NCBI RefSeq assembly: GCF_009914755.1
Contig: NC_060927.1
Length of the DNA: 64,000 nucleotides
Direction: 5' to 3' (one strand)
DNA from: the human T2T-CHM13v2.0 reference genome, Homo sapiens
The position numbers and the translations under genes are program-made. The notes under the pieces were generated by a model, which worked only from the letters and a program-made list of their open reading frames with translations, made no database searches and had not been told where the DNA came from. Each line of letters opens with the position of its first letter. Position 1 is the first letter of the stretch. This document shows positions 26,241 through 64,000 of this stretch, one piece after another.

Positions 26241-26294
26241 ATATCTGCCTTCCTCACCAGGATGACCGGGTAACCCATCAAAACCCTTCTCTCC
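26241..26294 (-). pseudogene. COL6A4P1: 54-bp triple-helix exon (GEKGFDGLPGHPGEEGRY); last collagen exon seen
   Basis: Classic 54-nt phase-0 collagen exon, ctcag acceptor, GTAAGT donor. Confidence 0.9.
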
Positions 26295-27870
26295 CTGAGA
26301 AGACAAGAAATCAAAATAAATAACTTGGCCTCTAAATTATTTATTTCTCAAATCTATATGAAATAAAAATTATTACTAATAGATACCCTTGTCTCACGGA
26401 GTTGTCATTTTATGGAGAATGTACTGAATATCAGGCACAATGTGCAGAGATGTACAGAAACAAATATTCTTGTCCAGTGTTACAGTGAAAACATGCATAC
26501 CTGTTTGTCTTAATAGTATATCAAACTATTCTTATTTTCCAAAATACCTTCTTAAGTCATTCTCTTGTAAAAATCCAAATCAAGACTAGTTTCTAGTTAA
26601 AAGCTTAAGGAAAACTGTTACTCTTAAAGAAGCTTTCAACCTTGTTTTACAAAACATCAGTAAGCAAAGCTCTTCCTGCCTATCTTATTCATGAGAAATG
26701 GTTGTTTATTTCTGTATGACTCAACTGTCCAGTTTTGTTTTGTCCTTTTACTACTTCTTACACACCGAAACACACAAACCATTTCCTCTCAAGGAAGTTT
26801 GGCTTGCCATGTTATAGTCAGATGTGTTTATTTAGTCTAAAAGCTGGTCAGTAAGACTTGGAAGGCATATTTTATTTGTGATCAACAAAGATATAAAAGT
26901 CATTATGACCATCTACTGAATTCTTGCAAACAGAAACAGCAGAGAAGTCAAAAATTTAAAATACTCCCATCTTTGGCCTTAGAGGCACCGGCACAAGCTG
27001 CAAAGAAACGTATCAAGAAGCTCCTAAACCTGATTTGCTGATTCTCCAATCTGTTAATGAATAACAACATGACAGGGAAAAGTCTAATGCTAAGGCATGA
27101 TTACAATTTATTTTTCAAACAGTAATTATAAACTTTATACTATTCTAAATTTAAAAGATTGATCTGCAAAGCCCTGAAGAGCTCATTCCAACAACCTCAT
27201 GGAAAATCTTCCAAAGAGAACATGTAAAAAGATGACACAAAGCCAGCGGGTGTAATTTAACCTTACCTGTGTGTCTGTGATTATACCCTCATTATAAAGC
27301 TTCAATCCCTGTGATAATGGAACCTTGCCAGCCCTGAATATCTGAGGACCATTTCTAATGAGATACTCTCCCTTAGAAGTGTTAGGTAGTAATTTTCCTA
27401 TTGGTTAACCTAGAATTAACAGAGATGCAACTCTTTTCTCAGAGTTTGATGCTGTAGAAAAGAATGTTAGATGGGAGAGAGGCATTTACTACTATAAAGA
27501 AAGCAGATGTTGGACAAGTGAAAATACGGTAGATAAGTGAAAACTTCTGTGCAGTGGCAGAATTTGTGACATTATTTGTCAAATGAGCACAAGAAGGTAG
27601 CATAATATGGTGGAAATCATGTGGGACTTAGAGTTAGGGAGACATAGGGGCTTAACTCCCAAATGCATCTTCATAATGATGCAATTTTGGGAAAGTGATG
27701 TCACCTCTCTGAGCCTCAATTTCACACATGTAAAATAACATCTACAGAAAGTGTTTGTTAGGGGGGTAAAATTAGAAAATGCTGTTAAATACATAACACA
27801 GTCTGGTATGTAGCGGGTACTGAAATATCGTCTCTCTCCTTCCCCCTATCCACACCTGACAAATTCTTAC

Positions 27871-27963
27871 CTTCCTCCCAGAACTCCCATAATCACCTCT
27901 GTACCCATCTTCTCCAAAACACTTTGCATATATATTGCAGCATGTTCTTTCCACAATTGTATC
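27871..27963 (-). pseudogene. COL6A4P1: Junction exon (93 nt; DTIVERTCCNIYAKCF-GEDGYRGDYGSSGRK)
   Basis: Cys cluster followed by 5 Gly-X-Y triplets; canonical splice sites. Confidence 0.88.
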
Positions 27964-28114
27964 CTGAAAAACAGATCCATATCACATACGATTTTCTCAT
28001 CTGTGTTAGTCTATATCACATTACACACTAAGAAGACAAAATTCTCTCAATGTTTTTAAAATTATTATAATTAATAGAACTCAGCAAAGGATGGCATTTT
28101 TAAAAAGTACTTAC

Positions 28115-28260
28115 AAGTTGCTTCAGTAAGACGCTTGGGAGGGATCGCAGTTTGATGCTCAGAGGTTGCTTATATGCAAACCCTCTGCCAAATTCCAGCT
28201 CCTGGAGCTCTTCTAATTTATGGACAACTTCCAGGCCAATGATTAGGAGTCCAGAGAATC
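28115..28260 (-). pseudogene. COL6A4P1: VWA N1 exon c (146 nt; GFSGLLIIGLEVVHKLEELQELEFGRGFAYKQPLSIKLRSLPSVLLKQL)
   Basis: Hand translation; EFGRGF motif typical of collagen VI long chains; GTAAGT donor. Confidence 0.85.
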
Positions 28261-30234
28261 CTTCACAATTTCAACAGGTGGGAGATTACTTTCATGTCTT
28301 TTGAATGGTCTTTGTCTCAGCCCCACATATTCATCCATCATTCCACCATTACCATAGCCTTCACCTGTCTTGTCTCAAACTGCATTTTGTTACAATTAAA
28401 ACTAGTTTGTGGCATGCCTTCTTGAAGAATTTGTCTGATACCTTTCAATCCCACCAGCTGAAAGTTGAACAGAACCACAAAGGACTCTCATAGCTCTCTT
28501 ATAGCCCCCATTTTGTCATTTCACAGACGGTTTTCAGCCCTCGTTGTATTAAATTAGATCCTTCTAAGCCTATCCCTGAAGTTGACTTTTGGTTTACACT
28601 TAGGAATTGTGGCAGTCACTGTGGCTGTTCACAGATGTTCTGGCTCCCCTTCTTAAGGGCACATGATAGGATCGCATGTCTTCAGTCAGGTTATAAACAC
28701 TCATTGAGGCTCAATTCCTTACCTGTAAAGTATTATCTATCTCATGAAAGTTAGAAGTGACCATATGGCTTGCTCTAGCTAATTAAATGTGAGCAGAAGT
28801 GACATGTGTTAATCCCCAGGAGAAATTTTAAGAGTAGTGCACAATTTGCCCCATTTCCTTTCCCTTGCCACAGCAATTACAAAAACAGCTGTTGGGATAG
28901 ACCCTCCTTCAGCCTGGGTTCTTGAATGGTGAGCAGGAGGCAAAGATGAATCACTTCTTGCTACTTTAAGTCACTGAGGTTTGGAGGTTGTTATTGCTGC
29001 ATAATCTAGCCTATCCTACCAACGCAGGCATTAAGAGATCATCTGGATTTGTCCACAGAACAAAAATACAAATGAACAAGGGTATTTTGGTAATTCAACT
29101 AGAAATCACCTTGTTTGTCGAATTTCAAAACAAATATTACTGTTAATAGTTTGAACAGTAAATTCTTGGCACATACATGCCAATCAGCTTTTTGCTATGG
29201 TAAACAAGCTGCTTGAGAACTGTGTGGTTAAAAGTTGTGTACATATTCTTAATTATTCCTTAAAACTAAATTCTTTGAAATGGAATTTCTGATCTAGCAT
29301 AGCATGTAAGCCAAGTTTAGTCTCTTGTTACATACTCTCAAATCCCCTCCAGAAAACATGCAAGAATTTAAACTTCCAGTGGCGATCTATGTAGTGAATT
29401 AAGATGGGAGTAAGGTGTCATAAAAAGATATTCTAGCACATGATTAACCAATGGAAAACATTGTCCCCAGCAAAATATGTTGAATAGACTCGACTGAAGA
29501 GGAAAAGAGGTGAAAGGAACTTGAGCAAGTCAAGTTGCTGGTTGTGCATCCTCAGGTTGCTTTTGAGCCTTTACATGGCACAAAGTGGGAATGGTGAGAG
29601 TCATAGTGTACAGTTGAACAAGTTGTGCTGCACAAGAACACCCATCTGAGAGAGCTAATGCACGGCCAAATCCAGCCAGCATACCCCTCACCACCCAGGA
29701 GCCCAATACACTTGCATCCATGCAGTGTATTGGATGTCCTTCTCTAATTGCACAAAGATGCCATATAGACTAGCAGCAGGAGCTTTTGAAGATGGAGAAG
29801 GAGGAAGAATTAAGAGCAAAGAGGGCAGAATTACAATGCAAAGAGCAGAGCCCAGCTTTAGACTGACTCCAGAGTTTAGGAGAAAACGACATATGGACCC
29901 CAGATTGGGCTAAAAGAACAAACAGCCCCTCTCACCATTTAAGTAGGAGTTGTACCTTCAACCTCCAACCCTCAAAAGCTAGTCCTGTCTGAGTCAGAAG
30001 ACCCCGGTCAGTGTCAGGGACATTGTTGAAGAAGGCAGGGAGTTTCAGCCCCAAAACATCCTCTGGCTCATACAAAGAATGAGACTGGGCATCAGCCTCA
30101 TGAGCACTGAGCCCCACGCACTGGGTGAACACACAGGAAGCTTCATAGAGTCCAGTGCCATCTGGAGAGCTGAGTGCCTCAGTTCCAGTGGGAGGAGGGA
30201 GGGAGGCCCACACTGGGCAACCCTATGCACTTAC

Positions 30235-30313
30235 CTCTGCTGTGGAGAAACTCCGATGTTTTTTTCAGTCTTTTTAAATCATCATCCAGTCCATCTGTAA
30301 ACACTAAAAGGAC
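30235..30313 (-). pseudogene. COL6A4P1: VWA N1 exon b (79 nt; VLLVFTDGLDDDLKRLKKTSEFLHSR)
   Basis: acag acceptor, AGAG|GTAAG donor; phase 0 to 1. Confidence 0.85.
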
Positions 30314-30339
30314 CTGTTGTTTATGAGAAAGGGGGTTGG

Positions 30340-30530
30340 CAGAACCAGACAGGGAGGGAGGGAGAAAAGAGAAGTAGGAAGGAGGGAGGGTGGGGAAGGA
30401 AGAGAAAAGGAAGGTGATAAGACAGTGAGAGCGGGGAGGAAAAGGGAAAGGAGGGAAGAGGAGGGAAGGGAAGGAGGAAAGGGAAGGAGGCAGGAAGAAG
30501 GGAGGGAACAGAGGGGAAGGGGAGAAGGAA
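30340..30530. repeat. GA-rich low-complexity tract
   Basis: Nearly pure purine on the plus strand. Confidence 0.9.
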
Positions 30531-31561
30531 TGCATAAAATGGATATTATAAATTGTACATTTCCTTAAAATTCAAGAGTGAGTTTTTCTGGTTATGCCTA
30601 GCCTTTCACCCTGTTCCTTTTTACTTATTCTTTTATTACGCATTCATCTTTATTTCAACTTCCCCATCCCCCTGGGAAAAAAAAAGAGGATTTGAATCGG
30701 CTGAACTTATTTAAAAATACCTTCCAAAAATGCTTATAATATTTATCCTTATCAACAAAAAATACCAAAATATTAACAGAGAGGTGTGTGTGCATGTGTG
30801 GTGTATGCAGTGTGGGCAGGGATGGAGGGGAGGAGATGTGGGGGTGGTTGTTGCTAATTTCTGTTATACTTTGTAATGTATTTTCTACAATTGAAATGTG
30901 TTTATTTGCTCATAAGAAATTTTTAATTTAAAACAGGAATAAAAAATAAAACATGGATGATATTAGTCAAAAAATACATCCATTGGATGCATAACAACGT
31001 AAATGTAAGTTATGAAGTTTGGGGATGTCATTTCCTATTATGTGATGTGATAAACATCACTTAAAAGCTTTCCATCTCTGTGGGCTTTTGTGAGTATATA
31101 GTTCAGAGACAGCAGAAGGGAGGGAGAGGCTTGAGGGGTGAGCTGTACTAAATAGCTCTCACTAAAGACAGTTCAAGATGCTGACTGGAAAAATAGCAAG
31201 CCTACTCTAAATGGTAATGAGTGACCATAAAAAGCTAAGGAGTCTTAAAACACCTTCCAAGTTGTCTTGGAAATGAATTTATGTTATGGAAGAATATGAA
31301 TCACTAAACTGTGGGCAATTTGAGAGCAGGGACTTTATTCTTATATTCCTACTAGCATTATTGAGCATAGAACATCTAGGGCTTAAAAAATATTTGTTGT
31401 TGAATGAAAACACATCTCTTGTTGGTTTTATTGTGTAACAGGATGGCTTTCCTCTGTGTAAGATCACCAATTAAGAACAATTTAGTTGGCCTCAGTCACA
31501 AAGCCTTATCCATTCTACCCTACCTGATGGCTCCATAGCAAGGGTTCTCAGCATTTATTAC

Positions 31562-31896
31562 CTTTACATTAGCAGAAGAGAGATGAATAGCATTATCTCC
31601 CAAGGACTGCAAAAAGTTCACATCCATATTGTTATTCCTGGCAGCCTGATGAACCAAGAACTTCTGGATGATCTCATAACTGTATTTTTCAAAGCCTGAG
31701 TCAAAGGTAAGCTGGCCATTTGAGCCAGGCACCAAGTAGCGGAATCTTGGGTCGATCTGATCAGAAATGCCACGGCTGATGTTAGAAAGTAAAGCCAACT
31801 GTTGCATCAGCTCTGGCAGTAACCCTTGAAGCTTCTGCTGAATTTTCTTTGAAGGAGTTGAGATATCAATTCCTACAGACAAATCCAGGTTGCATC
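31562..31896 (-). pseudogene. COL6A4P1: VWA N1 exon a (335 nt)
   Basis: GCNLDLSVGIDIS...SSANVK within ORF 31520..31939; phase 1 to 0. Confidence 0.85.
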
Positions 31897-33903
31897 CTTT
31901 GAAGGTGAAGAAAATAAAATTAGTCATCTGCAGGTGCATAACTAAGCCCAGAAGATATCAGCCAATCCAGCCCTAAAAGACAAACCCCCAGCCAACCCAC
32001 AGAAGCATAAGCTAAATAGTGGTAGTTTAAGTTTTGGGATTGTTTGTTACACAGCAAAAGCTAATTGATACAATACATCCTGTTTCATAGCTTTATGCCT
32101 CTGCAGATCCTACTCCCTTTGCCTAAAGTGTCTTTTCCCATCTTCCCACCCCAGTCTGGTCCTTCAAGTAGTAGTTCAAGTGCCTGCCCCACCCCACCCC
32201 ACTCACCAAGCACTCTCTGGTTTTTGTCCTCACCTCCTCATGTTAAGTTATTAAATGCCCGTGCATGCTCATTGTTACTTTATTTGACCTTCTTCCTGAC
32301 TAAACAAGGATTCCTTGATGGTAATGACTATGCCGTCTAATTTTCCAATTGCCTAATACAGATGTTCATTAAATGTTTGACAAATCAATGAAGAAAAGGA
32401 TATAAATGAGCCTTAAGTCTCTTTCAACAATAACTGGAATTATTTCCTTCTTCCCTGATAGTGTTTTTCCTCATTCACCACCCATGCCTATACCTTGTTT
32501 CAGCAGCATGGGAGCATATTAGAAAATGTCAGGAAAAAATCACTCCCAATTATCTGTTTCTTATATCTAAAAATAGTTAAGCCCTCTTGGGTAGCTTTTC
32601 TCTGGAATTTGAAGGCCAATTAATATTTCAGGCTATACCTATACACTTACCAGTATATAATAAAATTTTGCACAAAATTCCACTAAGGATCAAAAGTTGA
32701 TGGTCAGAGACACATCTGAGTTGGAATCTGGTTGGATGAATTAAAATGTAACAACCTTAAAAGGGCACCTATTAATTACTTCTGCACAACAAGCATAACT
32801 TAGGACTGTCCAAGGCAATCCAGGACATGCCAACATTTTCTCCTTAGATCATCACACACTAGAGTATATGATGATGTAAGGATCTGTGTCTATAACAGAA
32901 TCTATATACCTGTATCAGAATCTGCAAGAACAGAACTGCAAATGGGGAGGAACAATTTGAGGGAAAATAAATATGTAGTAGACCATTCACCATGGACAGT
33001 AGCTTAAAGTTTCCCAAAAACCTGAGATCAGAGCTGAGCCATGAGCATTCAGTCCCCTAAATGTCATACTCCATGCTAGCTGGTAAGATATATTTCTGGA
33101 ACTGCCAAGACAGAAAATGCCTTCATCTCCTCCTTTCACATAAAATATCTTAGTTTGGTTTGGTTTTTTAAATATGTAATTCAAATTTATAAAAATGAGC
33201 CTTCACAGATGTAAATCCCATTTCTATATTGGACCTAATTTCAGAAAAAAAGGAATTTCCTTTTTGTAGTATGGCATATTATTCCAACATTTCTAATTCA
33301 CATTTTCACCAGGAACATTTCCAGCTGGCTCTGTTCTATAATTGACAAATGCAAGAAGCAATTTCTTTCCCTTTTAATGGAGAGGATTAAATCTTGCCAG
33401 GTAATCTCTAAGGTCTTTTTCAGGTTTATGATTCTAGAATTCTATAATTAATTAGAGTCTAGCCCTTATTAAAGTGTCTAGCTAATTTCATCAAAAAATT
33501 TAAAGACAAAGTTGAAGATAAACATAAATCCTAACTTACTATAAGGGGCAAAATAAACTGAAAAAAGAAGCTGAATCCTATATCTCCTCTTCTCCCCAGT
33601 GTAATACCTACCTGCGTATAAACAAAAAATAGGACTTTGGTGACTAAAAAACTCTGAACTACTTAATGTAGGACATGCCATAATTCATGCTTCTTTTAAA
33701 AATAATTGTACATGTGCATTCTTTTCAGATGATTTTCAAATTTGGCTAGACTACTGCAAAGTAGTTATATTTTTTTGTCAATATAAGCAAAGATATTAAT
33801 TTAATGTCCTAGAAAATTGGACTTCAAAGTTTTGGTGGAATGCAGGGTTCTCATCCTAGTCCTCCAAAATTAAGTCTCTGTTTCCAAAATAAGACCTAGC
33901 CCA

Positions 33904-35996: not shown

Positions 35997-36417
35997 CTTG
36001 TGGATCACAGACCTTAGAAAGAATTTCCTTCTCCAGGTTCTGCAGGGCCTCAAAATTTACATCATGGTACACTTTGTCCTCATCATTAGTTATCTCCAAA
36101 AGCTGCGATTTTTTGGCTTCTCCCACCCCAATGGCAAAAATAATTGTGTTTTTGTCCCTGAGGGCTTTGGCTGGTATGATTACATTATCTTGGGCCACCC
36201 CATCGGTGATCACAATCAAATATTGTTGAACACTGGGTCTCCCTCCTTTTGAACTGTCAAAAAAAGGCAGAGTGAAATTCAGAGCTTTCCCAGTGCGGGT
36301 GCCATCCCTCATCTGCTGAACATCAAAGATGGCCCTGTAAATGTCCACCTTTGAGGATTATTGGTTGAGCCTGAATTCTTCCTGGGGGATTGAGCTGAAC
36401 TGCAAAAGGCCAATTTG
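35997..36417 (-). pseudogene. COL6A4P1: VWA exon N2, 3' portion (after SVA); TAA at 36358-36360
   Basis: QIGLLQFSSIPQEEFRLNQ*SSKVDIYRAI...VCDPQ, G|GTGAGT donor. Removing the SVA and one TSD restores a 555-nt phase 1-1 exon. Confidence 0.9.
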
Positions 36418-38689
36418 TTTTTTTTTTGTTTTTTTTTTTTTTAATTTTTATTTTTTTTATTGATCATTCTTGGGTGTTTCTCGCAGAGGGGGATTTGGCA
36501 GGGTCATAGGACAATAGTGGAGGGAAGGTCGGCAGATAAACAAGTGAACAAAAGTCTCTGGTTTTCCTAGGCAGAGGACCCTGCGGCCTTCCGCAGTGTT
36601 TGTGTCCCTGGGTACTTGAGATTAGGGAGTGGTGATGACTCTTAACGAGCATGCTGCCTTCAAGCATCTGTTTAACAAAGCACAACTTGCACCGCCCTTA
36701 ATCCATTTAACCCTGAGTGGACACAGCACATGTTTCAGAGAGCACAGGGTTGGGGGTAAGGTCACCGATCAACAGGATCCCAAGGCAGAAGAATTTATCT
36801 TAGTACAGAACAAAATGAAAAGTCTCCCATGTCTACCTCTTTCTACACAGACACGGCAACCATCCGATTTCTCAATCTTTTCCCCAACTTTCCCCCCTTT
36901 CTATTCCACAAAACCGCCATTGTCATCATGGCCCATTCTCAATGAGCTGTTGGGTACACCTCCCAGACGGGGTGGTGGCCGGGCAGAGGGGCTCCTCACT
37001 TCCCAGTAGGGGCGGCCGGGCAGAGGCGCCCCTCACCTCCCGGACGGGGCGGCTGGCCGGGCAGGGGGCTGACCCCCCCACCTCCCTCCCGGACAGGGCG
37101 ACTGGCCAGGCGGGGGGCTGACCCCCCCACCTCCCTCCCGGACGGGGCGGCTGGCCGGGCGGGGGGCTGACCCCCCCACCTCCCTGCCCGGGCGGGGGGC
37201 TGACCCCCCACCTCCCTCCCAGATGGGGCGGCTGGCCGGGCGGGGGGCTGACCCCCCCACCTCCCTCCTGGACGGGGCGGCTGGCCGGGCAGAGGGGCTC
37301 CTCACTTCCCAGTAGGGGCGGCCGGGCAGAGGCGCCCCTCACCTCCCGGACGGGGTGGCTGGCCGGGTGGGGGGCTGACCCCCCCACCTCTCTCCAGGAC
37401 GGGGCGGCTGGCCGGGCGGGGGGCTGACCCCCCCACCTCCCTCCCGGACGGGGCGGCTGGCCGGGCGGGGTGCTGACCCCCCAACCTCTCTCCAGGACGG
37501 GGCGGCTGGCCGGGCGGGGGGCTGAGCCCCCCACCTCCCTCCTGGACGGGGTGGCTGGCCCGGCAGAGGGGCTCCTCACTTCCCAGTAGGGGCGGCTGGG
37601 CAGAGGCGCCCCTCACCTCCCGGACGGGGCGGCTGGCCGGGTGGGGGGCTGACCCCCCCACCTCCCTCCCGGACGGGGCGGCTGCCGGGCGGAGACGCTC
37701 CTCACTTCCCAGACGGGGTGGCTGCCGGGCAGAGGGGCTCCTCACTTCTCAGACGGGGCGGTTGCTGGGTGGAGGGGCTCCTCACTTCTCAGACGGGGCG
37801 GTTGCTGGGCGGAGGGTCTCCTCACTTCTCAGACGGGGCGGCTGGGCAGAGACGCTCCTCACCTCCCAGACGGGGTCGCAGCCGGGCAGAGGCGCTCCTC
37901 ACATCCCAGACGGGGCGGCGGGGCAGAGGCGCTCCCCACATCTCAGACGATGGGCGGCCGGGCAGAGACGCTCCTCACTTCCCAGATGGGATGGCAGCCG
38001 GGAAGAGGCGCTCCTCACTTCCTAGATGGGATGGCGGCCGGGCAGAGACGCTCCTCACTTTCCAGACTGGGCAGCCAGGCAGAGGGGCTCCTCACGTCCC
38101 AGACGATGGGCGGCCAGGCAGAGACGCTCCTCACTTCCTAGACGGGGTGGCGGCCGGGCAGAGGCTGCAATCTCGGCACTTCGGGAGGCCAAGGCAGGCG
38201 GCTGGGAGATGGAGGTTGTAGCGAGCTGAGATCACACCATTGCACTCCAGCCTGGGCACCATTGAGCACTGAGTGAACCAGACTCTGTCTGCAATCCCGG
38301 CACCTCGGGAGGCCGAGGCTGGCGGATCACTAGCGGTTAGGAGCTGGAGACCAGCCCTGCCAACACAGCGAAACCCCGTCTCCACCAAAAAAGTACGAAA
38401 ACCAGTCAGGCGTGGTGGCGTGCGCCTGCAACCGCAGGCACTCGGCAGGCTGAGGCAGGAGAATCAGGCAGGGAGGTTGCAGTGAGCCGAGATGGCAGCA
38501 GTACAGTCCAGCTTCGGCTCGGCATCAGAGGGAGACCGTGGAAAGAGAGGGAGAGGGAGACCGAGAGGGAGAGGGGAGAGGGGAGAAGGGAGAGGGAAGA
38601 GGGAAGAGGGGAGAGGGGAGAGGGGAGAGGGGAGAGGGAGAGGGAGAGGGAGAGGCAGGGCTGGTCTTAAAGGGAGAAGAGCATGCTCC
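36418..38689 (-). mobile_element. Full-length SVA retrotransposon with 34-bp 5' extension
   Basis: On the minus strand: (CCCTCT)n ~38530-38655, Alu-like ~38160-38530, GC-rich VNTR ~36950-38160, SINE-R ~36460-36950, AATAAA 36456-36461, polyA. TSD CAAAAGGCCAATTTG at 36403-36417 and 38690-38704. Confidence 0.97.
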
Positions 38690-38838
38690 CAAAAGGCCAA
38701 TTTGAATTCCATCAGTACCAATATTAGATTGGTTCACCATGCTCTCCACAAATCTTTTCATCTTTTCAAAGTCTTTTGGGGAGATAGATTCTGAACCATC
38801 TATCAGGAAGATAATGTCAGCTTTACTATTCTTACAGG
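38690..38838 (-). pseudogene. COL6A4P1: VWA exon N2, 5' portion (before SVA)
   Basis: ACKNSKADIIFLIDGSES...GIQIGLL, then runs into the SVA. Confidence 0.9.
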
Positions 38839-39402: not shown

Positions 39403-39948
39403 CCTCTGAGGAGCAGATGTCCTGTACCACTTCTTTTTGGATGTCCTTCAGTAAATCAAACTCATACACAAAAAATATCTTGTCTTTAGCTATTTCCTTA
39501 AGCTCATCAATGTTAGCTTCTCTTATTCCAATGGCATAAATGTTAACTCCATTTGCCCTCAATCCCTCTGCAGCCTCAGCCACCGAGTCTGAAGATTTAC
39601 CATCAGTGATGACTATAACATATCGAGCAACATTGATTCGGCCGGTGTCTGCAAAAACCTGAGTCATGTTGTTCAAGGCCTCACCGGTTTTGGTGCCACC
39701 TCCCCCCTGCTGGATGTTATCAATGGCTACCTTCAGCTCTGTCACACTGGGATACTGGCTGAGGATAAATTTACTTTTAATTTTGTCTGAGTACTGAATG
39801 ATTCCAAACTGTACTCTGTTGGGCCCGATCTGGAACATCTTTATCACTTCATTCATGAACACCTTCATCTCAAGAAAATCTTCTGGATAGATGCTGCCAG
39901 ACCCATCAATAAGGAAGTAAATATCTGCCTTTTCGATGTGCACACAAC
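39403..39948 (-). pseudogene. COL6A4P1: VWA exon N3 (546 nt, open)
   Basis: ADIYFLIDGSGS MIDAS motif, IVITDG; canonical splice sites. Confidence 0.9.
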
Positions 39949-47864: not shown

Positions 47865-48470
47865 CTCCTACAGCCTCCTCGTTGGCTGTAATCCTGTGTT
47901 CCTGCTGTCTAGTCCCTTGGATCACCACATTCATATCTTCTACTATGTGTCTGACTTCATCTTCTCTCTGCACATCATAGACAAGGTCTGGGGATCCCGT
48001 CCCTTCCAGTTCTCTCCTGTCAAAGTCCTGCACACCCACAGACATAACTTTCACACCTTTCTCTCTTAGTCTCTGTGCAGCATCCTGGACTTCATCCTCT
48101 GATTTGCCTGAATTAATGACCACTGCATACTGGGGAATGCCCTGGAGAAACCTGCTTCCTGCTTCCTCCTGGAAGAATGTCTGAAGAAGGTATCACAGTG
48201 CCTTGCCTGTCCTCCTGGAGCAACCCAGGGGCACAAAATGCTCATGAATGTGAGCTATCATCTCATTCTGGGTCTTGTAGGTATTGAGCAAAAACTCAGT
48301 GTGACCTTGGTCACCATACTGAGCCAGCCCAATTTGGTACTTGTCCCTGCCAACCTCCAGCATGCCAACCACTCTGGAGAGGAAATTCTGCATCCTCTGG
48401 AAACTGGCCCGTGATGTGTCTTGTGATGTGTCAGCAAGAAAGACCATGTCTGCATAGGCTTTGATGAATT
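47865..48470 (-). pseudogene. COL6A4P1: VWA exon N5 (606 nt, in-frame TGA at 48193-48195)
   Basis: ORFs 48193..48447 and 47848..48123 are in the same frame either side of KAL*YLLQTFF; canonical splice sites. Confidence 0.88.
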
Positions 48471-49171
48471 CTGGAAGTAAAGGGAAAGGGAGACCAGGGG
48501 GCCAGAAAAAGACAAAAGGAGAAAGTAAATCAAATCAAACTCTCATGAAAATTGAATATAAGGATCGTTTTGTGTGCCCAATGTGAGAGGTAGAAGTCCT
48601 ATCTTTATACAACTCTCTGTATATTGTACTTCCCTTCCTCTATGTGGGACTCTATCACAAGGCTTTTCCTCTCTTATAGCCTGCTGCCTTGTTGTCTGTT
48701 TTATTATACTAACCTACCTTTCAATTACTCTTGTTCAAACAATAGAGGAGGCAAGGGAAGTTAACTGAGGATACATTTTATGCTAGAGCTTTTTATACAT
48801 TTTATCTGATTTAATCCTCATAAGCCTTTCTTCTAGACAAGTATTATTTTCTTTGTGAAGATGAGAAAATTGAAGTGAAAAAGTGAAGCCACTTGTCCTT
48901 GCTGACACAACTAGAAAGTGGCAAAGACAGGATTAAAAAACAGGTCTTCTGGCTTTCAAAACCCATGCTGTTTCCTTTGAACAACATGGCAAGATGTTCC
49001 TTTCTACCCACAAGAACTCCATCCGGCCTTCAATCCTTTCCCCTAGGAAGCCTCCCCAGGTTCTCCAGTGATGCTGGGCACTCCTTTCCCTCCCATACAC
49101 CCAGCATATTCTGGGTTATATTTTAGTAAGCTGGCATGGTTGGAATCTTGGGTTCTAACACAGCTTCTTAC

Positions 49172-49760
49172 CTTTTATCTTACCCTCCACTGCTGAGCAC
49201 AGAGTCTGAAGAATACTTCCTGAAAAATCCTGCAGGATATTGAAGTTTTCAGTGTTGAAGAGAAACTTCTCAAATGGCTCACTGGTTATTTTTTGCAACT
49301 CTTGGACATCCTGGACATTGACCCCTACCACATAACACAACAACTCCATCTTCTTTCAACCGGTCAGCCACCTCCTGGACCTCATCATTTGACTCCCCGT
49401 CAGTCACCAGGATAACTATCTGAGGAACTCTGTCCTTGGCCCGACTGCCAGACTCCTCAGTCAAATAGTTGGTCCTGATAAACTCCAGGGCGCTCCCTGT
49501 GTTTGTGCCTCCTGTGCGGTATGGCAGATTCTGGATCTGCTCCAAGATCATGCTCTTCAGAGGGTGCTGGTTCAGCTGGAAGGCTGGGTAGATGTTGTCA
49601 TTATACTGGGCAAGTCCCACTCGGACACGGTCACTGCTGATGTCAAGCCCCAAGATGACGGAGTAAAGGAAGTTCTTGACTTTCTGGAAGTTTTGGGGTC
49701 CGATGCTAGTTGAACTGTCTACTAGAAACACAATGTCTGCCAGGGCTGCTTCTCTGCAAG
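49172..49760 (-). pseudogene. COL6A4P1: VWA exon N6 (589 nt, +1 frameshift at ~49335)
   Basis: DIVFLVDSSTS MIDAS motif. GTG T TAT GTG carries an extra T, splitting the domain between ORFs 49279..49731 and 49155..49349. An alternative donor exists at 49184. Confidence 0.88.
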
Positions 49761-55297: not shown

Positions 55298-55383
55298 CAA
55301 TCCTCTGTGACTTGAAGCCAAAACCAGCTTCAAGGAGGATGATCCCCCAAAATATCTTCCAAGTCTCCATTCTAGATGTGGAC
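55298..55383 (-). pseudogene. COL6A4P1: COL6A4 start/signal-peptide exon (ATG at 55370; METWKIFWGIILLEAGFGFKSQRI)
   Basis: Polypyrimidine tract + AG acceptor, 13 nt of UTR, 73 coding nt, phase-1 GT donor; hydrophobic leader. Not in the ORF track; translated by hand. Confidence 0.85.
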
Positions 55384-61216: not shown

Positions 61217-61525
61217 TCAGTGGGTGTGCGCACCATGCGTGAGCCCAAGCAGGGCGAGGCATTGCCTCACTTGGGAAGCGCAAGGGGTCAGGGAGTTCCT
61301 TTTCTGAGTCAAAGAAAGGGGTGACGGACGGCACCTGGAAAATCGGGTCACTCCCACCCGAATACTGCGCTTTTCCGACGGGCTTAAAAAACGGCGCACC
61401 ACGAGATTATATCCCGCACCTGGCTCGGAGGGTCCTACGCCCACGGAGTCTCGCTGATTGCTAGCACAGCAGTCTGAGATCAAACTGCAAGGCGGCAGCG
61501 AGGCTGGGGGAGGGGCGCCCGCCAT
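61217..61525 (-). CDS. L1 antisense ORF0 (102-codon variant) downstream of the antisense promoter
   Basis: MAGAPPPASLPPCSLISDCCASNQRDSVGVGPSEPG...RFSR; ATG in GCAATGG context; GT donors after nt 106 (61420) and nt 191 (61335). Confidence 0.85.
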   Translation of the reverse strand: MAGAPPPASLPPCSLISDCCASNQRDSVGVGPSEPGAGYNLVVRRFLSPSEKRSIRVGVTRFSRCRPSPLSLTQKRNSLTPCASQVRQCLALLGLTHGAHTH

Positions 61526-61980
61526 TGCCCAGGCTTGCTTAGGTAAACAAAGCAGCCGGAAAGCTCGAACTGGGTGGAGCCCACCACAGCTCAAGGAGGC
61601 CTGCCTGCCTCTGTAGGCTCCACCTCTGGGGGCAGGGCACAGACAAACAAAAAGACAGCAGTAACCTCTGCAGACTTAAATGTCCCTGTCTGACAGCTTT
61701 GAAGAGAGCAGTGGTTCTCCTAGCACGCAGCTGGAGATCTGAGAACGGGCAGACTGCCTCCTCAAGTGGGTCCCTGACCCCTGACCCCCGAGCAGCCTAA
61801 CTGGGAGGCACTCCCCAGCAGGGGCAGACTGACACCTCACACGGTCGGGTACTCCAACAGACCTGCAGCTGAGGGTCCTGTCTGTTAGAAGGAAAACTAA
61901 CAAACAGAAAGGACATCCACACCAAAAACCCATCTGTACATCACCATCATCAAAGACCAAAAGTAGATAAAACCACAAAG

Positions 61981-62997
61981 ATGGGGAAAAAACAGAACAG
62001 AATAACTGGAAACTCTAAAAAGCAGAGCGCCTCTCCTCCTCCAAAGGAATGCAGTTCCTCACCAGCAACGGAACAAAGCTGGATGGAGAATGACTTTGAC
62101 GAGCTGAGAGAAGAAGGCTTCAGACGATCAAATTACTCTGAGCTACGGGAGAACATTCAAACCAAAGGCAAAGAAGTTGAAAACTTTGAAAAAAATTTAG
62201 AAGAATGTATAACTAGAATAACCAATACAGAGAAGTGCTTAAAGGAGCTGATGGAGCTGAAAACCAAGGCTCGAGAACTACGTGAAGAATGCAGAAGCCT
62301 CAGGAGCCGATGCGATCAACTGGAAGAAAGGGTATCAGCGATGGAAGATGAAATGAATGAAATGAAGTGAGAAGGGAAGTCTAGAGAAAAAAGAATAAAA
62401 AGAAATGAGCAAAGCCTCCAAGAAATATGGGACTATGTGAAAAGACCAAATCTACGTCTGATTGGTGTACCTGAAAGTGATGGGGAGAATGGAACCAAGT
62501 TGGAAAACACTTTGCAGGATATCATCCAGGAGAACTTCCCCAATCTAGCAAGGCAGGCCAACCTTCAGATTCAGGAAATACAGAGAACGCCACAAAGATA
62601 CTCCTCGAGAAGAGCAACTCCAAGACACATAATTGTCAGATTCACCAAAGTTGAAATGAAGGAAAAAATGTTAAGGGCAGCCAGAGAGAAAGGTCGGGTT
62701 ACCCTCAAAGGGAAGCCCATCAGACTAACAGCGGATCTCTCAGCAGAAACCCTACAAGCCAGAAGAGAGTGGGGGCCAATATTCAACATTCTTAAAGAAA
62801 AGAATTTTCAACCCAGAATTTCATATCCAGCCAAACTAAGCTTCATAAGTGAAGGAGAAATAAAATCCTTTACAGACAAGCAAATGCTGAGAGATTTTGT
62901 CACCACCAGGCCTGCCTTACAAGAGCTCCTGAAGGAAGCACTAAACATGGAAAGGAACAACCGGTACCAGCCACTGCAAAATCATGCCAAAATGTAA
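61981..62997 (+). pseudogene. L1 ORF1p (338 codons) with premature TGA at 62368-62370
   Basis: ORFs 61981..62370 and 62437..62997 share a frame; AAG TGA GAA where CGA (Arg130) is expected. Confidence 0.95.
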
Positions 62998-63045
62998 AGA
63001 CCATCGAGACTAGGAAGAAACTGCATCAACTAACAAGCAAAATAA

Positions 63046-64000
<955 letters not shown>

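What the first reader, a model, noticed from the sequence alone, without database searches (positions are those of the whole stretch)
35997..38838. SVA inserted inside the VWA N2 coding exon
Seen: the exon is split at QIGLL with a perfect 15-bp TSD, and excision restores a 555-nt exon. Exonic SVA insertions are rare. A separate TAA 43-45 bp beyond the TSD suggests tolerance in an already dead gene. From memory, the human 'DVWA' model has no such interruption, so this may be a lineage-specific or polymorphic allele (inference).
Basis: partly seen in the sequence, partly recalled or inferred. Interest (0 to 1): 0.7.

Follow-up and report, generated by a model that had tools for sequence, protein, structure and literature searches.

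The report
Catalogued SVA splitting dead collagen exon
A full-length SVA jumping element, already listed in a published catalogue, splits one exon of the broken human collagen gene COL6A4P1; it likely landed after the gene was dead and likely has no effect, but it shares a short captured tag with two sister copies that likely points to a parent element missing from this genome.

Summary
Structure confirmed: a 2,272-nt full-length SVA in gene-sense orientation, with a perfect 15-bp TSD, splits the sixth VWA exon (N2) of COL6A4P1. Excision restores a 555-nt AG/GT exon with one TAA. The element is not new. Damert 2018 lists it as hs_SVA_DR (hg19 chr3:15203555-15204051) with no chimpanzee or gorilla orthologue entered (mapping cross-checked). 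It is not among 83 reference SVAs found absent in 608 genomes. So it is likely human-specific and fixed. The gene was already dead: split across chr3, with a frameshift in N6 and a TGA in N5 upstream. DVWA's frame ends in N6, so the DVWA argument is moot. Neither donor site holds an SVA. This is likely a three-member 5'-transduction group from a vanished source. Ordinary mechanism, modest curiosity.

The parts
38705..38838 (-). 5' part of the COL6A4P1 VWA N2 exon, after an AG acceptor
   Evidence: 76-78% identical to mammalian alpha4(VI) chains
38690..38704 (-). Upstream TSD copy (15 bp, encodes QIGLL); the cut site is one mismatch from the L1 endonuclease TT|AAAA consensus
   Evidence: consensus recalled
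38656..38689 (-). Non-SVA 5' tag: one extra G, then 30 nt identical to chr11:129,872,839-868 or 33 nt with one mismatch to chr9:33,789,787-819; likely a 5' transduction
   Evidence: shared by SVAs on chr1 and chr19
38544..38655 (-). SVA hexamer/heptamer repeat
38130..38543 (-). SVA Alu-like domain; the exon frame read into the insert stops at a TGA here
36961..38165 (-). SVA VNTR (37-49-nt units)
36460..36960 (-). SINE-R; equals hs_SVA_DR hg19 chr3:15203555-15204051 in Damert 2018
36418..36461 (-). AATAAA at 36461 and poly(A) tail; no 3' transduction
36403..36417 (-). Downstream TSD copy
35997..36402 (-). 3' part of the N2 exon, followed by a GT donor
36358..36360 (-). In-frame TAA where marmot has Tyr
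48193..48195 (-). Upstream lesion: TGA in the N5 exon (Trp in marmot)
49279..49355 (-). Upstream lesion: frameshift in the N6 exon and the stop that likely ends the DVWA frame
26241..26297 (-). Last alpha4(VI)-matching collagen exon in the window; later residues map to chr3:132.99 Mb, + strand

Best explanation
A full-length SVA with a perfect 15-bp target-site duplication sits in gene-sense orientation inside the N2 exon of the COL6A4P1 pseudogene; it was likely inserted by L1 machinery on the human line after the gene had been broken, is likely fixed and neutral, and likely descends from a source SVA that once sat at a chr11/chr9 duplicated site and is absent from this genome. Shown: anatomy, TSD, exon restoration, upstream frameshift and TGA, the split of the gene between 15.2 and 133.0 Mb, the captured 5' tag, two sister SVAs with the same tag, and empty donor sites. 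From papers: subfamily SVA_DR, no ape orthologue entered, not found absent in 608 genomes, inversion shared with apes. Inferred: target-primed reverse transcription; transcription of the source starting about 13-21 nt upstream of its own target site and copying that flank into the offspring; the extra G coming from the cap; loss of the source by drift; insertion near the human-chimpanzee split; neutrality.
For: TSD, poly(A) and endonuclease-like site. Catalogue row without orthologue, in a table where shared elements carry one. Distance to the neighbouring SVA is 98,985 nt here and 99,003 nt in hg19. The four chr3 polymorphic reference SVAs lie at 42.8, 58.5, 133.8 and 194.4 Mb, none at 15.2 Mb. 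Gene split and upstream lesions (passages in PMC4777857 and PMC11919215). Tag in 3 SVAs with three different TSDs of 15, 12 and 8 nt. The trio shares two Alu-like letters found in only 1 of 19 other copies, and the sisters are the best Alu-like matches, 97.2% and 97.0%. The donor match ends 11-13 nt after a TT|AAGA site, as a source TSD would; such a site falls 9-20 nt before 11% of arbitrary ends. 13 private substitutions in 932 nt (1.4%, 95% interval 0.7-2.4%) argue against a very recent insertion.
Against: No ape or pangenome sequence was seen; human specificity rests on a blank LiftOver cell in panTro4/gorGor5. The polymorphism screen covered 608 subjects, all reported as white, and only SVAs in a human-specific track. 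The Alu-like tree does not make the trio a clade (4% of bootstrap trees; L018, L014 and L022 fall with them; no starred branch). No source SVA was found. The donor cannot be fixed: all three copies carry the chr11 letter at one position, but the window copy carries the chr9 letter at another. 1.4% private divergence is high for a human-only element against a recalled 0.6% genome average per lineage.
Confidence: 0.82

Rival explanations
1. The SVA predates the human-chimpanzee split: it is either present in Pan and missed by LiftOver, or was polymorphic in the ancestor and lost in Pan.
For: 1.4% private substitutions, against 0.6% and 0.9% in the sisters. SVA_DR includes elements shared with chimpanzee, among them the neighbour about 99 kb away.
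Against: No orthologue is entered in Damert 2018. The intervals of the three copies overlap. The chr1 sister likely equals hg19 chr1:26923492, also without orthologue (offset recalled, not cross-checked).
Confidence: 0.15
2. It is a presence/absence polymorphism in living humans.
For: Human-specific SVA_D elements can be polymorphic; non-European samples were not covered by the list read.
Against: Present in hg19 and CHM13; not among 83 reference SVAs absent in any of 608 genomes; many private substitutions; 85% of those polymorphisms were E/F/F1.
Confidence: 0.06
3. The 5' tag came by reverse-transcriptase template switching onto a pre-mRNA or DNA, once in a common parent, with no SVA ever at the chr11/chr9 site.
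For: No SVA at either donor. The tag is on the same strand as nearby TMEM45-family and trypsin exons, so a pre-mRNA template is possible. The endonuclease-like site has an 11% background.
Against: Two different 5' start points within the tag (30-33 nt and 25 nt), two of the three copies with an extra G, fit transcription starting in the flank. No parent with a longer tag and its own TSD exists among the 7 matches. Missing sources are reported for 16% of transduction-carrying insertions (PMC12593883 section 10).
Confidence: 0.15
4. The sense-strand SVA is functional: its polyadenylation signal terminates COL6A4P1/DVWA transcripts and affects the osteoarthritis-associated locus.
For: Sense orientation and AATAAA at 36461. 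82% of SVAs in annotated exons are sense-oriented (PMC10380656 passage).
Against: The RefSeq transcript ends at 39771; the DVWA frame ends three exons upstream; COL6A4 was not found in the held supplement of the exonisation screen; a fixed element cannot drive an association.
Confidence: 0.07

Closest known systems
SVA_D, subgroup hs_SVA_DR (Damert 2018, PMC6139936)
   Same: Same element by coordinates; full canonical anatomy; SINE-R 97.8-98.4% identical to the 29 best other copies fetched.
   Different: The rows seen give only position, subfamily and orthologue status: nothing on the host exon or the 5' tag.
5'-transducing SVA groups (Damert 2009 and Hancks 2009, recalled, not readable; Kirby 2025, PMC12593883, abstract and section 10 read)
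   Same: Unique flank between TSD and hexamer, shared by several copies, traceable to an origin where the source may be missing.
   Different: Very short tag (25-33 nt), three members in CHM13, origin in a chr11/chr9 duplication so the donor is ambiguous; not a spliced exon as in SVA_F1/MAST2.
COL6A4P1/DVWA, 5' half of the split COL6A4 gene (passages in PMC4777857, PMC11919215, PMC6031366, PMC10049728, PMC4323016)
   Same: Same locus; inversion-split pseudogene.
   Different: The passages read do not mention the SVA, the N5 TGA or the N2 TAA.
Disease-causing SVA insertions (PMC8149882 introduction passage)
   Same: TPRT insertion into a gene in a way that would destroy the frame.
   Different: Here the gene was already broken and the insertion is in the reference genomes.

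Membership tests
SVA retrotransposon | 5' hexamer repeat | tested here: met
   38544-38655
SVA retrotransposon | Alu-like domain | tested here: met
   91-97% to other SVA copies over 431 nt; 65-75% to ordinary Alu-type repeats
SVA retrotransposon | GC-rich VNTR | tested here: met
SVA retrotransposon | SINE-R at the 3' end | tested here: met
   2020 first-look candidates genome-wide, best 98%; coordinates match a published SINE-R. HERV-K origin is from the literature, not tested
SVA retrotransposon | Poly(A) signal, tail and TSD | tested here: met
SVA_D / hs_SVA_DR | Diagnostic SINE-R substitutions against the published consensus | not tested
   Label taken from Damert 2018 Additional file 2 by coordinate; Additional file 3 not read
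Human-specific SVA | Empty orthologous site in chimpanzee and gorilla | not testable with these tools
   No ape genome held; blank orthologue cells only
Reference SVA presence/absence polymorphism | Empty allele in human genomes | tested here: inconclusive
   Not in the list of 83 from 608 European-ancestry genomes; other populations not seen
5'-transduction group | Non-SVA sequence inside the TSDs, 5' of the hexamer, with a genomic origin elsewhere | tested here: met
5'-transduction group | Several independent insertions share the tag | tested here: met
   3 of 7 pattern matches are SVA starts with different TSDs
5'-transduction group | Members descend from one source (shared substitutions) | tested here: inconclusive
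   Two near-private shared letters, but no supported clade
5'-transduction group | Source SVA at the origin (confirmatory; published groups are also inferred without it) | tested here: inconclusive
   Absent at both sites in CHM13; other haplotypes and apes not seen
COL6A4 VWA exon | Collinear high identity to mammalian alpha4(VI), above paralogue level | tested here: met
   72-89% to squirrel and marmot across exons; paralogous loci at most 48%

The most novel reading that the evidence does not exclude
An undescribed three-member SVA_D family (chr3 COL6A4P1 exon, chr1, chr19) marks a ghost source element that sat in the chr11q24/chr9p13 duplicated segment upstream of TMEM45-family and trypsin exons, was active around or after the human-chimpanzee split, never fixed, and may still survive in some human, archaic or ape haplotype.
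Probability: 0.35. Interest if true: 0.35.

Novelty: new member of a known kind. Interest (0 to 1): 0.2.

Why it matters
Little follows for collagen biology or osteoarthritis: the insertion lies downstream of lesions that already end the frame. It is a clean example of an SVA fixed inside former coding sequence once selection was gone, and it orders events (inversion first, SVA later). The 5' tag gives an exact address at which to look for a lost source element, a cheap test of how many SVAs came from sources that never fixed.

Tried and rejected
Paper searches (all 10 used). COL6A4+SVA: 4 papers hold both terms, 2 listed, both unrelated by listing. COL6A4P1+pseudogene+inversion: 1. COL6A4+orangutan+gorilla+chimpanzee: 0. 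PRSS3+segmental duplication+chromosome 11+TMEM45B, 3 of 4 terms: 1, listing only. SVA+transduction+TMEM45B+PRSS3, 3 of 4 terms: 13 hold, 12 listed, none on retrotransposons by listing. Damert 2009, Hancks 2009 and Fitzgerald 2008 were not held; their supplements, above all the Damert 2009 list of 5'-transduced SVAs, may already contain this trio. Chu 2023 (PMC10681720): passages only, its element lists are off-library. Tang 2018 (PMC6191304): outline only. Kirby 2025 supplements: no hit for gene names or donor coordinates; '1516' occurs 4 times, 2 seen (a chr1 row), 2 not seen. Chimpanzee source at the chr9 donor: 60 of 140 chr9 places in Damert file 2 seen; nearest are panTro4 34,360,086 and 34,610,629 (pt_SVA_D5c), which I could not convert; chr11 and gorilla rows not examined. 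No primate COL6A4 protein among 25 hits, so the TAA and frameshift could not be dated. 13 of 16 matches to the short junction pattern and L049 are not SVA starts. No sister with a 3' transduction of the donor flank (2 matches, both donors). Rejected: chance repeat, DVWA protein disruption, recent near-identical sibling (best SINE-R 98.4%).

Full report
Observation. On the minus strand the exon starts after an AG at 38838, runs 149 nt to the end of a 15-mer at 38690, and resumes at 36402 after a second identical 15-mer, ending before a GT at 35997. The two copies cannot be extended and occur nowhere else in the window. Removing the insert and one copy gives 555 nt, open except for a TAA at 36360-36358. 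Mammalian alpha4(VI) chains run through the site without a break, and marmot has Tyr at the TAA. [quoted passage not shown] Reading into it stops at a TGA about 55 codons on. It is the sixth VWA exon, followed by a multi-exon VWA and collagen exons, hence N2 if the recalled count of seven N-terminal domains holds.

State of the gene. Squirrel alpha4(VI) residues up to 1219 map to this window, ending at 26241; residues 1419-1526 map at 79% to chr3:132.99 Mb on the other strand. Passages in PMC4777857 and PMC11919215 attribute this to a pericentric inversion in humans and modern apes. Upstream of the SVA there is a frameshift in the N6 exon near 49345 and a TGA in the N5 exon at 48195. PMC4323016 places DVWA Tyr169 and Cys260 in exon 3 (passage). 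In my translation of that exon a Tyr and a Cys lie 91 residues apart with a stop 16 residues later, which fits a recalled length of 276. So the DVWA frame likely never reaches the SVA exon, and the RefSeq transcript ends at 39771.

Already catalogued. Damert 2018 (PMC6139936; parts 1-2 of 5 of the text, passages, and part 20 of 22 plus searches of Additional file 2 read) lists hs_SVA_DR at hg19 chr3:15203555-15204051 with empty chimpanzee and gorilla cells, in a table where shared elements carry coordinates. The identity does not rest on my recalled offset: the same table has an SVA 99,003 nt away, and CHM13 has one 98,985 nt away. Pfaff 2021 (PMC8149882; passages and part 1 of 2 of supplement 1) lists 83 reference SVAs absent in at least one of 608 genomes; its four chr3 entries are far from 15.2 Mb. 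That cohort was all reported as white, and only human-specific-track SVAs were screened. The copy has 13 private substitutions in 932 nt (1.4%, 0.7-2.4%), and its best SINE-R relative among 40 scored of 2020 candidates is 98.4% identical. It is therefore likely old, fixed and human-specific, and later than the inversion. I saw no ape sequence, and an insertion just before the human-chimpanzee split is not excluded.

The 34 nt between the upstream TSD and the hexamer are not SVA. They match chr11:129,872,839-868 exactly over 30 nt and chr9:33,789,787 onward over 33 nt with one mismatch. These two loci are 94% identical over 8.2 kb. They lie 18.5 kb before a TMEM45-family exon and 25 kb before trypsin exons on the same strand (the names TMEM45B and PRSS3 are recalled). 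Of 7 genome matches to the tag, 3 are SVA starts (this one, chr1:26,433,319 and chr19:60,579,424) and 4 are the donor sites and their inverted arms. The sisters have their own TSDs of 12 and 8 nt and a 25-nt version of the tag. They are the closest Alu-like relatives seen, 97.2% and 97.0%, and the three share two letters found in 1 of 19 other copies. Against this, a tree of 22 Alu-like rows does not resolve them as a clade (10 of the other fetched loci lacked a full Alu-like match and were left out, and L030 duplicates L051). Neither donor holds an SVA. The donor match ends 11-13 nt after a TT|AAGA site, where a source element's TSD would lie; 11% of arbitrary ends have such a site.

Mechanism. 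Most likely an SVA_D once inserted at the chr11 or chr9 site, was transcribed from just upstream, and gave at least three offspring before it was lost or became rare. Kirby 2025 reports such missing sources for 16% of transduction-carrying insertions (section 10). One offspring was inserted by L1 proteins at a near-consensus site in a dead exon and drifted to fixation. The donor is ambiguous: all three copies have the chr11 letter at one position, and the window copy has the chr9 letter at another. Template switching is the rival for the tag.

Novelty. The element is known as a catalogue row. I found no statement of its exon-splitting position or of this trio in the searches or in the supplements searched, but the 2009 papers that catalogued 5'-transduced reference SVAs could not be read and may hold it. 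All mechanisms are textbook. Interest 0.2.

Noticed in passing
L003:1310-1530 and 2466-2686; L004:1331-1533 and 2422-2624: Both donor sites lie at the inner end of a 205-223-nt inverted repeat (88-91% identical arms) about 0.9 kb apart, enclosing Alu-type repeats.
   Followed up: no
L050:524-2044 (chr19:60,579,423 onward): The chr19 sister is 3'-truncated: poly(A) follows only about 142 nt of SINE-R.
   Followed up: partly
L051:520-2681 (chr1:26,433,319 onward): The chr1 sister is full length; it likely equals hs_SVA_DR hg19 chr1:26923492-26923988, without ape orthologue (offset recalled).
   Followed up: partly
window 47869-48471: A VWA exon (N5) with an in-frame TGA at 48195 that is not in the RefSeq model.
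   Followed up: partly
window 26241-31900: Further COL6A4P1 exons (N1 pieces, two collagen exons) beyond the annotated end; the annotated enhancer 31478-32677 overlaps one.
   Followed up: partly
window 39771: The RefSeq 3' end lies mid-exon in an A-rich stretch a few bases after ATTAAA, possibly internal priming.
   Followed up: no
window 55299-55370: Weak match (E 8.5e-4) to residues 1-25 of P0012, likely the signal-peptide exon.
   Followed up: no
L041:2601-4476 (chr3:15,063,600-15,065,475): A second SVA about 99 kb away, listed by Damert 2018 as SVA_DR shared with chimpanzee.
   Followed up: partly
window 61245-64000: Long masked repeat whose frames look like an L1 5' region (resemblance recalled).
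   Followed up: no
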